In this document: piece by piece, positions 12,101 through 16,114 of the stretch
Numbering within the stretch: position 1 is the stretch's first letter
Layout: each line of letters starts with the position of its first letter
Assembly: GCA_000002445.1 (NCBI GenBank)
Contig: CP000068.1
Span: 1,408,001 to 1,472,000, forward strand
From: Trypanosoma brucei
Lineage: Eukaryota
Direction: 5' to 3'
DNA: 64,000 nt
Program-made: the position numbers

Positions 12101-15100
12101 TCATAGCAGCAGCCATGATCAAAGACAATTTCTTATTTACTAGAAAACTACAATTTGGGACCTTTGTTTTTCAGGCTCATTCTCGTTATCTTTCCCCTTT
12201 CTCCATGCACAATTTTGCTTGTCGCCTGTTTTGTCATTTTCACAAGCTTTCTTATCAGTTCCGTGTTTTGCACATCCAGTTGCAGCTGCCTTCCCTGCAG
12301 GTCCCTCTGCTTCCGCTCCTGCTCCTTCTTTAGTTGCTTGTTCGCTTGCTGCTGTCGTATTCAATTTGCACTTTTTCCATTCACCAGCTGCCTTGTCATC
12401 CCATTCAATTCCGCTGCCTGTTGTCACTGCTGTCGGTCTGTTATTGTTACACACTTTTGGTCGGTATTTGTTTTGAGCGTGCCGGCCGCAGTTGTAGTTT
12501 CGGCCAGTCCGCTTGCAGCGTATGAAATTTCCACTTCATTTGCTACCGCATAGGCGGCCTCCCTCGTTGCTTTTAGTTGGTCTTCGACGGCTTCTGCTGC
12601 TTTGAGTGCATCTTTCCTTGCCTGCAGCTGATGTTGCAGTTGCCGCAGTTTCTCTGCCCACGTTATTTGTTTGAAGCCGGTTGTTCCGGTGCCCGTATAT
12701 GCCGTATACTTTACGCATAGCCCGTTATTGGATTTACCGCCACAGTTGCCGGTGTTGTATGCCCCGAGGTCTCCGTTGCCGCTAATTATCCGGATGCTCC
12801 TTTGGAGGGTATCTAGTGGGCCTTTGATATCGGCGGCGCTTATTGTTGTTTTGTCTGTTTTAGCGCAGTAGGCTAGGACGGTTGTTACTTGCGCGGCTGT
12901 GGGGACCGAGGCAACGGTCCACTGCTCGGCCGCCATGCCATGCCCGCAAGCTTCGTCCTGGTTGTTCGAGTCCGCTTTGACGCATAAGCAGGCCAGTGTG
13001 GCCGCTACTGAGGTAGCTTTTGTTGTCGGCAGTGCATCTTGGCAGTAGCCGGCGCAGTTCGTTGCCGCGCCGCTCCCGAAGGCGTCCGAGTGGGCCACTG
13101 TTGCTCCGGTTTTGCCTGTCTTGCCGAACACCGCTGTCGCTAGCGTCTCTGTCAACGAGCTTGGTCTGGGTTTGTTTAATTTTTGCTCAAGTTGAGTCCG
13201 CGCCGATTGAAGTTTCAAAGCTATGGATTCCAGTGTTCGGATCCTTGCCAGGGCCACTGTTTTGAGTTTTTTTGATAAAGCCTCAAAGCCATGCTGCTTG
13301 ATTTCGTCTGCTTTAGTTGGGGTCTTGGCATCTTGTATTGCCTTTATCCAGCGTGCCCACGCGTCGTACCATCCGCCAGGATCACTCATACCGTGTGGAA
13401 ACTTTGTTTCCCAGGTTTTACCATCTCCCCCCTTGCTGAATTTTGCTTGCCACTCCTGTGAGCTTAAAGTCATATTTAGCGCTTTGATGTCTTCGAAAGC
13501 CTGTTTTCCTTTGTCGCTGTCCACCGGTAAGGTGGGTTTGCTTTCAGAGAGTGCGACTAGTTGGCACAGCGCGCCGAACTCCAATGCATTTGTGCCTGGT
13601 TGTACGTTGCCGGCGTCCGCTGTTGTCAAGCTTGACATCAATGCTATTAAAATGCTCGCCGTTTTCATAATGGATGTTTGACTCTTTATCTTGATCATTT
13701 TTTCTTTAAAGTTCAAAAAATGTAGAAAAGTGACGTGTTTTGGGAAACCGGTGTTTGTTTTTGGAGTTTAGTTTTGGATTAAACTTGGTATATTTCATTA
13801 TTTCTAATCGCTATGCCCACATTTTAGTTGGACATTGGAAGAAAGCGAGTTTTGTTTAGCTTGAGATCTTTTGCAGCTAGTAAACGATTTTAGTAAGGGT
13901 TACGGGTTAATTCCATGTGCCAGAGCCGCGCTGTGGAACAGAAGTTGTTTGTAATGGTCAGTTGGCCTGATGTATAGTGGTGGTGTCAATTGTTGCATCC
14001 ACCCTAAGGAGTAAATGTATTGCTCAAGGAAAGTTTGCTCTAGTAGCGACACGGTGTTTTTGGTTGCCGGCGCAGGCCAGCTTCGCCTTAAATATTGAGG
14101 TTAAAGGACAGTAGTGCGAATGCATTTTTTATCAGTTTCTTATCCTTAAAACTACCCTTCTTTAAACGCCTTACCACATATATTTCCATAGTCAATCTTC
14201 AATTCCATTACCTGCCGCACAAATTTAATTTTTCCCAAACTCTCTTGTTCTAAATTGCCTTTTCTCTAACTTTTTATACCAAGTAAGACTATACACAACA
14301 AACTTAGCCCTTTCCCCCATGGAATTAAGTTCCCTGGAAAATGAATAAATGAGGTATGACAAAAGTCCCCGATATGCGGAATAGAAAAGAAGTTCTCCTT
14401 ATAATCTAGCCCGATCATTTCTCTTCTCCTCAAAACAAATCTCTGTCTAATATCCTCTTCCTGAACGGCACTTCATATTAGCAGAGGCTTTGAAATACTC
14501 TGATCCGACCACCATTCCTCACTTTTTTTGAGTAATACCCTAAATGCATATTTACATTTACTAAATGCCCACTTTTTCGTTAGCACATCACCACAACTAG
14601 GATAGGATTCTCCACTGAGAGGTGATTTTAGTAAATGCGGTAACTTTTTATCCTCTTCTTTTTTCTGTGACCAACATTGAAAAAATTTTATATCTTAACA
14701 TGCTTTTTTGTGAATTTCCTTCTCACTAAACATCTTTTCATTTTCTGCAAAATTTTGTATAAAATATTCTACAACCTTTTCGTATTTTTCTCCGTCAAAA
14801 ACAATAACATCTGACCCATCAACAGTTATTACAATATCTTCATCACTTGCATTCTGTTTTTCTAAGAATTTCATAACCCATCTAGCTCTTTTGACATGGC
14901 TATACAAACATCCCGTTGCAATTGTAATAATTTCAACGTTTCTTAGTTTGGCACTCAATGTGAATCTACGCCATCCTTGATGTGCATAAGTTTGAACTAC
15001 AATCACGAACACTCCGTGGATTATTGGGGTTATTATGTATTGTGCCGTTTCACCCTCTTGAACAGATACTGATCTTAAATGCACAAAATACAAAGATATC

Positions 15101-16114
15101 GAAATTAGTAGAGTTCTCAATATAACAAATTTCATGCAATAATCTGCCTTTGTGTTTGATATTGTTATAAGAAAGTAATATAAAATGTTAAGGAAAGAAG
15201 TTAGTTGTGATACTAAGGTGTTTAGTAACGTAATCAGTATTTACATATCTATGTGAGCTTTGCCCTTATATTGTTATGATTATCTGTTAAACGATGTTTT
15301 CTCATTGCTTGTAGCGTATTTTTCAAGATGAATATACCGTATTATTTTGGGAAATTACATTCACCCACAGTTATTGGTCTACACCACGTTAACTCCACCG
15401 TACATTTAATTCTTTGAATTTCCCCATGAATTACAATTGGAATTAAAGTATACATTTAAACTTTCCGCTTTGAACATACTAACATTAAAAACATTACTAT
15501 TATAACTACCCCAAAAAGCAAGTCTCGTCATTAGACTCTCATTACTGCCCTTTCATGGACTTCTGTTACTTTCCGCGCTACCACCAACTCTGCAGCATAA
15601 CCTACCAATTTCCTAGTGAAATATGAAGCGCAATATCCTCCCCTTGGTGTATCATTTATTTTGTTGCTGTGATATTGTAAATTTTGTTGTTTAATATTGA
15701 ATTTTCTTTTTTTCTTTTCATCTTCTGTCGCTGTTTCTCTGGAAACCGTAGCTACTCATTATACCCGTGCACTGGAATCTGTCTTTCCCTCATTGTCCAC
15801 TCCATCATCTCTCTGCATATGCTGATAATCATTTTCACATTTCTGTGTTTTGAAGCTGCGAATATTCCATTTCCTTCTTTTTATTTAAGGATATCCCTTT
15901 CTTATTTAATAATATCCCTATTATCTTCTATTTCTCACGTTTGTACCCCCACTCCACCTTTCCATTATCATATATGATTCTATTCTATGCATCCACTAAG
16001 TCATCATTACTGCACGTATTATAATATTAGTATATACACACACTCACAACACTCTCCTATCATTATAATAATAATAATAATTATTATTATTATTACTATT
16101 ACTATTACTATTAC

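What the first reader, a model, noticed from the sequence alone, without database searches (positions are those of the whole stretch)
14100..15135. Small GT-A-fold-like membrane-protein gene embedded in the VSG co-transposed region, duplicated with its VSG cassette
ORF 14695-15135 (146 aa) has a proper ATG, an N-terminal signal-anchor and a beta-alpha-beta pattern ending in DEDIVITVDGSDVIVFD (DxD-like). This is typical of the N-terminal half of a Golgi nucleotide-sugar glycosyltransferase. A decayed paralogue (54280-54720) occupies the same position in another cassette: 70-bp repeat, this gene, then a B-type VSG (pseudogenes 12090-13716 and 51876-53397, which share ...NxTLS..WQAKF). The ~1-kb homology extends ~600 bp past the stop, so the ancestral gene was probably ~350 aa. 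Co-transposed regions are normally considered non-coding. A gene travelling with a VSG would be duplicated or activated along with it.
Basis: inference. Interest (0 to 1): 0.6.

Follow-up and report, generated by a model that had tools for sequence, protein, structure and literature searches.

The report
Decayed ESAG3 glucosyltransferase pseudogene beside VSG
The small ORF is the surviving front end of a dead copy of ESAG3, a known trypanosome gene family recently reported in a 2026 preprint to encode the enzyme that adds glucose to the parasite's surface coat; such dead copies are already known to be scattered through silent coat-gene arrays, so the finding is real but ordinary.

Summary
ORF 14695-15135 (-) exists, and about 1.1 kb of homology links it to a second copy at 53742-54836 (-). 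Both copies lie between a 70-bp repeat and a B-type VSG.

The element is not a new gene. It is a full-length but disabled copy of ESAG3 (expression-site-associated gene 3, Fam53). ESAG3 residues 1-360 align to 15135-14155 at about 50% identity (E 1e-92 to 1e-98). This copy has three in-frame stops and a net loss of 33 codons. Copy B lacks an ATG and has five stops and at least three frameshifts.

A 2026 preprint shows ESAG3 is a Mn2+/UDP-glucose O-glucosyltransferase of class-B VSGs, with a GT-A fold closest to LH3/PLOD3. I reproduced that fold assignment (AlphaFold2 pLDDT 86; Foldseek top hit LH3, E 4e-9). The metal-binding motif is DGSD (DxxD), not DED.

Four points are wrong or unsupported:
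- The GT67 and Golgi signal-anchor assignments.
- "Duplicated with its VSG cassette": the homology stops at the ESAG3 unit and the VSGs are unrelated.
- Novelty: ESAG3 pseudogenes in VSG arrays are published.
- An ESAG3 pseudogene 3' of the 70-bp repeats is also published (BES7, and probably BES15).

Substitutions between the two copies are spread evenly over codon positions, which indicates neutral decay. Interest is low.

The parts
14155..15135 (-). ESAG3 pseudogene, copy A. It corresponds to ESAG3 residues 1-360 in one reading frame. It has in-frame stops at 14697-14695, 14475-14473 and 14268-14266, and a net loss of 33 codons, mostly ESAG3 residues ~150-190.
   Evidence: tblastn of 15 ESAG3 proteins gives 48-50% identity and E 1e-92 to 1e-98. 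Stops and key residues are mapped. blastp of the conceptual translation gives E 1e-107.
14695..15135 (-). It covers the ESAG3 signal sequence, the first three beta-alpha units of the GT-A fold and the DxxD motif, and ends at the first premature stop.
   Evidence: ORF list. It is 58-61% identical to expression-site ESAG3 (E 1e-55) but 28-34% identical to GRESAG3-like proteins. Pfam GT_PLOD gives E 2.6e-4, below the curated cut-off.
14809..14820 (-). Codons for D-G-S-D (ORF residues 106-109). This is the DxxD Mn2+-binding motif, equivalent to ESAG3 D110/D113 and LH3 D112/D115.
   Evidence: Residue mapping. Motif definition and the D110N loss of activity come from preprint 10.64898/2026.01.27.701950. 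D113 is invariant and D110 is conserved in at least 90% of 26 relatives.
15136..15250 (-). 5' flank shared with copy B (about 60-68% identity). It contains pyrimidine-rich runs (CTTCTTTCCTT, TTACTTTCTTAT) followed by AG dinucleotides, which could be a relic trans-splice acceptor region.
   Evidence: Sliding identity of alignment A1 and the sequence itself. The splice-acceptor reading is inference only.
16018..16296 (-). 70-bp repeat block of cassette A: two GT-rich core units flanking a long (TAA)n run.
   Evidence: Pattern search with 0 matches expected by chance, Tandem Repeats Finder, sequence.
12424..13716 (-). B-type VSG of cassette A (430-aa ORF; the C-terminal domain continues out of frame to about 12140). 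It carries a Cys-flanked loop, NCGGKSNNGLCVKY, resembling the VSG3 O-glucosylation loop.
   Evidence: Pfam VSG_B E 6.7e-72, ORFs, loop search.
53742..54836 (-). ESAG3 pseudogene, copy B. It corresponds to ESAG3 residues 1-368 at 70-77% identity over the first 284 residues. It starts with ATT instead of ATG and has five in-frame stops and at least three frameshifts.
   Evidence: tblastn gives four HSPs in three frames, E 1e-121. Stops are mapped.
55128..55197 (-). Single degenerate 70-bp repeat of cassette B.
   Evidence: blastn against the repeats of cassette A gives 77-79% identity; sequence.
51876..53397 (-). B-type VSG pseudogene of cassette B, with multiple frameshifts. It carries the loop GCSGSSEQGMCIKF.
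   Evidence: Three-frame translation, Pfam VSG C-terminal domain, weak similarity to the cassette A VSG (35% over 69 aa), loop search.

Best explanation
The interval holds a dead, silent copy of ESAG3 (Fam53) in a Trypanosoma brucei-type subtelomeric VSG array. Live ESAG3 genes sit in the telomeric bloodstream expression sites. According to a 2026 preprint they encode an ER-luminal, Mn2+- and UDP-glucose-dependent GT-A O-glucosyltransferase that glucosylates Ser/Thr in a Cys-flanked loop of class-B VSGs.

ESAG3 is the one ESAG family that moves between expression sites and subtelomeric arrays, and most array copies are pseudogenes. Here one copy became lodged between a 70-bp repeat and a VSG. 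It has since decayed neutrally: three stops, a net 33-codon loss and two active-site substitutions. The 146-aa ORF is what remains before the first stop. It contains only the nucleotide-binding half of the fold with the DxxD motif, so it cannot be a working enzyme.

Because of where it lies, it would be copied and transcribed with its VSG if the upstream crossover falls in the 70-bp repeat. BES7 of Lister 427 shows this outcome: an ESAG3 pseudogene sits 3' of the 70-bp repeats, upstream of VSG3. Any present-day role would be as a passenger, or as a tract of dispersed homology for recombination, not as a protein.

Shown: identity, disablement, position, fold of the family, neutral substitution pattern. 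Inferred: how it got there, and that it is co-transposed.
For: Identity:
- The only database cluster hit is ESAG3 (E 9e-115; members are named ESAG3 in T. b. brucei and T. b. gambiense).
- tblastn covers ESAG3 residues 1-360.
- The ORF is much closer to expression-site ESAG3 (58-61%) than to GRESAG3-like proteins (28-34%).

Disablement:
- Stops, deletion, G216D and E244D in copy A; no ATG, five stops and frameshifts in copy B.
- A-versus-B differences are flat across codon positions within the 146-aa ORF (0.25/0.27/0.26).
- The exact 146-aa product is not on record in the indexed assemblies.

Fold and function of the family:
- The preprint reports cryo-EM, D110N and W242A mutants, UDP-Glc specificity and ER location.
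- Independent checks here: a family profile hits the LH3 GT domain at E 2.4e-5. The AlphaFold2 model has pLDDT 86.2 and pTM 0.83. The Foldseek top hits are LH3/PLOD3 (6wfv, E 4.4e-9, TM 0.64), then mimivirus R699 and GT8 enzymes.

Position and prior knowledge:
- 70-bp repeats and VSGs are mapped.
- PMC3607257 says ESAG3 'is also in VSG arrays'.
- PMC6152948 says most subtelomeric copies are pseudogenes.
- PMC2567434 lists 'ESAG3 psi 3' of 70-bp repeat' in BES7.
- PMC3605285 says ESAG3 is the exception to ESAG monophyly by location.
Against: - Copy A keeps one reading frame over 978 nt, keeps its ATG, and keeps the DxxD, W242, Q245 and H297 codons. That is rather well preserved for a sequence only about 50% identical to ESAG3. 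The C-terminal part shows a mild deficit of second-position changes (0.19 vs 0.31/0.32). This could mean it was functional for part of its history, or that it descends from a divergent ESAG3 subfamily that I could not sample.
- No T. brucei genome was searchable with these tools, so I could not identify the source strain or annotation, or find orthologous copies.
- There are no expression data.
- The enzymology rests on a preprint that has not been peer reviewed.
Confidence: 0.93

Rival explanations
1. The 146-aa ORF is a functional truncated ESAG3-derived protein: signal sequence plus half a GT-A domain. It would be expressed when its cassette is copied into an active expression site, for example as a UDP-sugar-binding module or as a modulator that inserts into or poisons the ESAG3 octadecamer.
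For: The ORF has an intact ATG, an ESAG3-like signal sequence, the N99-type sequon (NAS) and DGSD. A pyrimidine tract followed by AG lies upstream. Dimer-interface residues Y82 and H84 are kept. The cassette position would allow co-activation; BES7 is a precedent for transcription of such an element.
Against: Differences from copy B are evenly spread over codon positions inside the ORF. The ORF ends inside the fold, after helix 142-146 of the model and before strand 154-159, so it lacks half of the central sheet. Interface residue H54 is changed to Y. Copy B has no ORF at all. The product is not recorded in the indexed assemblies. The locus lies in a silent array.
Confidence: 0.03
2. The ESAG3 pseudogene is kept next to class-B VSGs for a reason. 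It could be a relic or marker of an ancestral enzyme-substrate gene pair (O-glucosyltransferase plus O-glucosylated VSG). Alternatively it could be a homology tract that steers recombination of these cassettes towards ESAG3 copies in expression sites.
For: Both ESAG3 pseudogenes in the window precede B-type VSGs, although only 3 of the 13 or more VSG (pseudo)genes in the window are recognisably B-type. Both VSGs keep a Cys-flanked Ser-containing loop like the VSG3 acceptor loop. The published case, BES7, carries VSG3, the class-B model substrate. Recombination breakpoints in expression sites coincide with ESAG3 loci, and ESAG3 (pseudo)genes were suggested as possible single-strand-annealing substrates for ESAG4/8 deletions.
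Against: There are only three cases. Class B is about half of the repertoire, so 3/3 has p of about 0.1. The two cassettes share nothing but the ESAG3 unit, and the spacing differs. At about 50% protein identity to expression-site ESAG3, copy A is almost certainly too diverged to be an efficient recombination partner. Both copies are decaying neutrally.
Confidence: 0.04
3. It is a member of the T. brucei GT67 family of Golgi UDP-Gal/UDP-GlcNAc-dependent glycosyltransferases.
For: Only the generic features of an N-terminal hydrophobic segment followed by a beta-alpha-beta acidic motif.
Against: The full-length best match is ESAG3 at E 1e-92 to 1e-115. The only Pfam, PDB and fold matches are to the PLOD/LH3 GT domain, and no other glycosyltransferase family is listed at E up to 10. 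The preprint describes ESAG3 as soluble and ER-resident.
Confidence: 0

Closest known systems
ESAG3 (expression-site-associated gene 3; Fam53) of Trypanosoma brucei, including its subtelomeric pseudogene copies
   Same: Collinear homology over residues 1-360 of 368. It shares the signal sequence, the N99 sequon, the DxxD motif and the W242/Q245/H297 codons. It lies in a subtelomeric VSG array, where ESAG3 pseudogenes are known to occur. It is nearer to expression-site ESAG3 than to GRESAG3.
   Different: It is only about 50% (copy A) or about 70-77% (copy B) identical to expression-site copies, which are 92-95% identical to one another. It is disabled by stops, a deletion and frameshifts. It lies downstream of the 70-bp repeat, not in the canonical ESAG3 positions upstream of it.
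'ESAG3 pseudogene 3' of 70-bp repeat' in Lister 427 BES7 (VSG3/427-3), probably also BES15 (Hertz-Fowler et al. 2008, PMC2567434)
   Same: The arrangement is the same: 70-bp repeat, ESAG3 pseudogene, VSG. In BES7 the VSG is class B, as in both window cassettes.
   Different: Those copies sit in telomeric, transcribable expression sites, whereas the window copies sit in a silent internal array.
Glycosyltransferase domain of human LH3/PLOD3 (collagen galactosylhydroxylysyl glucosyltransferase; Pfam GT_PLOD PF25342)
   Same: GT-A fold, a DxxD Mn2+ site, a glycine loop, a C-terminal His and a UDP-glucose donor. It is the top structural match of the ESAG3 model and the only sequence-level PDB match.
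   Different: About 14-15% identity. The Pfam score is below the gathering threshold (16-21 vs 27 bits). LH3 is a multidomain enzyme acting on hydroxylysine-galactose, whereas ESAG3 is a single-domain octadecamer acting on Ser/Thr of VSG (preprint).

Membership tests
ESAG3 / Fam53 (sensu stricto clade) | Significant full-length sequence homology to expression-site ESAG3 proteins | tested here: met
   E 9e-115 in the protein search. tblastn covers ESAG3 residues 1-360 at E 1e-92 to 1e-98 for copy A and residues 1-368 at E 1e-121 for copy B.
ESAG3 / Fam53 (sensu stricto clade) | Closer to ESAG3 than to the conserved GRESAG3 lineage | tested here: met
   58-61% identity to ESAG3 against 28-34% to ESAG3-like proteins of other trypanosomatids. 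No formal phylogeny with all T. brucei copies was possible.
ESAG3 / Fam53 (sensu stricto clade) | Intact coding sequence of about 368 codons (functional gene rather than pseudogene) | tested here: not met
   Copy A has three in-frame stops and a net 33-codon loss. Copy B has five stops, at least three frameshifts and no ATG. It is therefore filed as a pseudogene member.
ESAG3 / Fam53 (sensu stricto clade) | Complete catalytic set: D110, D113, G215-G216, W242, E244/Q245, H297 (preprint) | tested here: not met
   In copy A the D110, D113, G215, W242, Q245 and H297 codons are kept, but G216 is D and E244 is D, and everything after residue ~148 lies beyond the first stop. Copy B keeps all of these codons, but across frameshifts and stops.
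GT-A fold, PLOD/LH3-like glycosyltransferase domain | Rossmann-like GT-A fold with the closest structural neighbour being the LH3 GT domain | tested here: met
   Tested on the intact relative P0001: AlphaFold2 pLDDT 86.2; Foldseek against PDB gives 6wfv at E 4.4e-9, probability 1.00, TM 0.64. The window ORF itself covers only the N-terminal half of that fold.
GT-A fold, PLOD/LH3-like glycosyltransferase domain | Pfam GT_PLOD (PF25342) above the gathering score | tested here: not met
   20.7 bits for the ORF and 16.5-20 bits for intact ESAG3, against a cut-off of 27. The best family member reaches E 4e-7. It is homologous at superfamily level but is not a curated member of this Pfam family.
GT-A fold, PLOD/LH3-like glycosyltransferase domain | Glucosyltransferase activity with a UDP-Glc donor and Mn2+ | not testable with these tools
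   Reported for expression-site ESAG3 in preprint 10.64898/2026.01.27.701950. Not expected for the truncated window copy.
   No glycosyltransferase Pfam family other than GT_PLOD is listed at E up to 10. The best homologues are ESAG3, described as soluble, ER-luminal and bearing a cleaved signal sequence. No GT67 sequence was available for a direct pairwise test.
VSG cassette / co-transposed region element | Lies between the 70-bp repeat and the VSG start on the same strand | tested here: met
   Cassette A: repeat 16018-16296, element 15135-14155, VSG from 13716. Cassette B: repeat 55128-55197, element 54836-53742, VSG from about 53397.
VSG cassette / co-transposed region element | Actually co-transposed with the VSG during gene conversion | not testable with these tools
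   Only a precedent is available: an ESAG3 pseudogene 3' of the 70-bp repeats in BES7.

The most novel reading that the evidence does not exclude
ESAG3 pseudogenes that lie inside the co-transposed region may be preferentially linked to class-B VSGs, the substrates of the ESAG3 O-glucosyltransferase. If so, they would be relics of an ancestral enzyme-substrate gene pair, or a homology tag that biases how class-B cassettes recombine into expression sites. In this window 2 of 2 such pseudogenes precede B-type VSGs that carry VSG3-like Cys-flanked Ser loops. The published BES7 case precedes VSG3 itself.
Probability: 0.08. Interest if true: 0.5.

Novelty: already known. Interest (0 to 1): 0.12.

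Why it matters
It matters little as a discovery. ESAG3 pseudogenes in VSG arrays, and downstream of the 70-bp repeats, are documented, and the biochemical role of the family has just been reported.

It is useful as a calibration point.

One question is cheap to test and has some interest: whether ESAG3 relics in co-transposed regions track class-B (O-glucosylated) VSG cassettes. If they did, it would bear on why the O-glucosyltransferase gene is housed in the VSG expression site at all, which the preprint's authors leave open.

Tried and rejected
- GT67/Golgi type-II glycosyltransferase: rejected, because only ESAG3 and PLOD-type matches were found.
- Whole-cassette duplication: rejected. blastn of cassette A against cassette B finds only the ESAG3 unit and generic 70-bp repeats. 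The VSGs share 35% identity over 69 aa, no more than any two B-type VSGs.
- Other ESAG3 copies in the window: none found.
- First AlphaFold2 run, using an alignment of ESAG3 sequences that are 92-95% identical (plus the window ORF), failed (pLDDT 31) and was not used. The second run, with 26 diverse relatives, succeeded.
- The word-indexed protein database returned only one ESAG3 cluster in each of two searches and six proteins in the profile search.
- Exact-sequence look-ups of the 146-aa ORF, of the intact neighbouring VSG and of ESAG3 found nothing on record. I therefore could not obtain the source strain, the annotation or any orthologous loci.
- A fuzzy-regex scan for 70-bp repeats timed out and was replaced by blastn-short.
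- A literature search for 'co-transposed region' together with ESAG3 found nothing.
- Several VSGs in the window (247-1671, 31714-33171, 62534-63787) could not be classed as A- or B-type. The count of 3 B-type VSGs among 13 or more is therefore only approximate.
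Full report
**1. What is in the sequence**

The window is a minus-strand array of VSG genes and pseudogenes of the Trypanosoma brucei type.
- Pfam finds A-type and B-type VSG domains and VSG C-terminal domains in ORFs along the whole window.
- GT-rich 70-bp repeat cores with (TAA)n runs lie upstream of most of them.
- An ingi-type retrotransposon interrupts the array at about 21.5-26.5 kb.

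On the minus strand it lies 883 bp downstream of a 70-bp repeat block (16018-16296). It lies upstream of a B-type VSG (12424-13716; Pfam VSG_B, E 7e-72).

A second copy exists in another cassette. Direct-repeat search, MAFFT and blastn give 71-79% DNA identity. A sliding identity plot shows homology in copy A from about 15250 to about 14125, with background levels outside.

**2. What it is**

A conceptual translation hits a single protein cluster at E 9e-115. The 15 members of that cluster are ESAG3 proteins of T. b. brucei and T. b. gambiense, 368 aa long.

Searching those proteins back against the window with tblastn gives the following.
- Copy A: ESAG3 residues 1-360 align collinearly to 15135-14155 in one frame, at 48-50% identity and E 1e-92 to 1e-98. 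There are in-frame stops at 14697, 14475 and 14268, and a net loss of 33 codons, mostly around ESAG3 residues 150-190.
- Copy B: ESAG3 residues 1-368 align to 54836-53742, at 70-77% identity over the first 284 residues and E 1e-121. It has ATT in place of ATG, five stops and at least three frameshifts.
- No other ESAG3-like sequence is in the window.

The 146-aa ORF is 58-61% identical to expression-site ESAG3. It is only 28-34% identical to the ESAG3-like (GRESAG3-type) proteins of other trypanosomatids. So it belongs to the ESAG3 clade proper and is a diverged member of it.

**3. Is it alive?**

No.
- The ORF stops at the equivalent of ESAG3 residue ~148.
- In the structural model of intact ESAG3 that point lies after helix 142-146 and before strand 154-159. 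Half of the central sheet, the glycine loop (G215-G216), W242, E244/Q245 and H297 all lie beyond the stop.
- Reading through the stops, G216 has become D and E244 has become D.
- Differences between copies A and B inside the ORF are spread evenly over codon positions (0.25/0.27/0.26). This is the signature of neutral drift. The downstream part shows only a mild deficit at second positions.
- The exact product is not recorded in the indexed assemblies.

**4. The glycosyltransferase reading**

For the family this is correct.

A preprint dated 2026 (10.64898/2026.01.27.701950) reports the following.
- ESAG3 is required for O-glucosylation of VSG3.
- It uses UDP-glucose and Mn2+.
- It has a GT-A fold closest to LH3/PLOD3 and forms an octadecameric ring.
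- It depends on D110 of a D110-x-x-D113 motif and on W242.
- It is a soluble, N-glycosylated, ER-resident protein with a signal sequence.

I checked the fold assignment independently.
- Pfam GT_PLOD is the top match of the ORF and of intact ESAG3, but below the curated cut-off (16-21 vs 27 bits).
- phmmer against PDB finds only LH3 (E 0.027).
- A profile of 18 diverse relatives raises this to E 2.4e-5 and also aligns the glycine loop.
- An AlphaFold2 model built with 26 relatives reaches pLDDT 86.2 and pTM 0.83.
- Foldseek places the LH3 GT domain first (6wfv, E 4.4e-9, TM 0.64). Mimivirus R699, CMP-KDO synthetases (nucleotidyltransferases), and glycogenin and other GT-A enzymes follow.

In the window ORF the metal-binding motif is D106-G-S-D109 (codons 14820-14809). 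The suggestions of GT67 membership, Golgi location and a signal anchor are not supported.

**5. Was it duplicated with its cassette?**

No.
- Outside the ESAG3 unit and the generic 70-bp repeats, cassettes A and B share no detectable DNA similarity.
- The two VSGs are both B-type and share the LNxTLS..WQAKF motif.
- However, they are only 35% identical over 69 residues, no closer than either is to a third B-type VSG in the window.
- Spacing also differs: 883 vs 292 bp from repeat to element, and about 440 vs about 345 bp from element to VSG.

The two copies are old paralogues sitting in the same relative position in unrelated cassettes.

**6. Is it new?**

No. The literature already covers it.
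- ESAG3 'is also in VSG arrays' (PMC3607257).
- Pseudogenic ESAGs are prevalent in arrays (PMC4766357).
- ESAG3 is the one ESAG family that is not monophyletic by location (PMC3605285).
- The specific arrangement is also published. In Lister 427, BES7 (VSG 427-3, which is VSG3) is listed with 'ESAG3 psi 3' of 70-bp repeat'. BES15 is among the sites with extra sequence between the 70-bp repeats and the telomere (PMC2567434).

In that case too the element is a pseudogene.

**7. Most likely mechanism**

- ESAG3 sequences are exchanged between expression sites and subtelomeres by recombination.
- A copy that lands downstream of a 70-bp repeat becomes part of that VSG's cassette.
- In the silent array it is under no selection and decays.
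- When the cassette is used as a donor with the upstream crossover in the 70-bp repeat, the relic travels with the VSG.
- At about 50% protein identity to live ESAG3 genes, copy A is unlikely to serve as a recombination partner. Copy B, at 70-77%, is marginal.

The steps on origin and co-transposition are inferred. Identity, disablement, position and family fold are shown.

**8. Residual novel reading**

- Both ESAG3 relics in the window precede B-type VSGs, although only three of the 13 or more VSG (pseudo)genes here are recognisably B-type.
- Both VSGs keep a Cys-flanked, Ser-containing loop (NCGGKSNNGLCVKY and GCSGSSEQGMCIKF). These resemble the VSG3 acceptor loop CTGSASEGLCVEY.
- The published BES7 case is VSG3 itself, the model substrate.
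- Three of three is not significant when class B is about half of the repertoire. The loop is a general class-B feature.
- A genome-wide census would settle this cheaply. I give it a low probability.

**9. Verdict**

The element is an already-known kind of object, an ESAG3 pseudogene in a VSG cassette. Interest is low.

Noticed in passing
window 62240-62345 (with VSG-like ORF 62534-63787, minus strand): About 17 tandem TTAGGG units (read on the minus strand) lie about 190 bp downstream of the stop of a VSG-like ORF. The 3' UTR of that ORF carries TGATATATTTTAACAC. This looks like a fossil telomere, meaning a formerly telomeric VSG now internal to the array. T-rich sequence follows it. The ORF's N-terminal domain matches no Pfam VSG model, although its C-terminus is 53% identical to that of the A-type VSG at 16509-17954.
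   Followed up: partly
window 21480-26500 (+): An ingi-type non-LTR retrotransposon with long ORFs (endonuclease, reverse transcriptase, RNase H) is inserted in the opposite orientation to the VSGs. GC content rises to 0.53 there.
   Followed up: partly
window 36000-42000 (+): A stretch with inverted AT skew holds short plus-strand ORFs with C2H2-like motifs (for example 40131-40409 and 40861-41352). It is probably a degenerate retroelement. It was not identified.
   Followed up: no
window 12703-12744 and 52409-52450 (-): Both B-type VSGs downstream of the ESAG3 pseudogenes carry a short Cys-flanked Ser-rich loop followed by [VI]-x-[YF] (NCGGKSNNGLCVKY and GCSGSSEQGMCIKF). This resembles the VSG3 O-glucosylation loop used as ESAG3 substrate in the 2026 preprint.
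   Followed up: partly
window 247-1671 and 31714-33171 (-): Two intact-looking VSG ORFs (474 and 485 aa) match the Pfam VSG C-terminal domain. Their N-terminal domains match neither the A-type nor the B-type Pfam model, nor any other VSG in the window.
   Followed up: no
window 15770-15882 vs 31207-31322: A 115-bp stretch between the 70-bp repeat and ESAG3 pseudogene copy A is 73% identical to a stretch downstream of the stop (3' flank) of another VSG in the window (31714-33171). This suggests a short shared element between cassettes that is separate from ESAG3.
   Followed up: no
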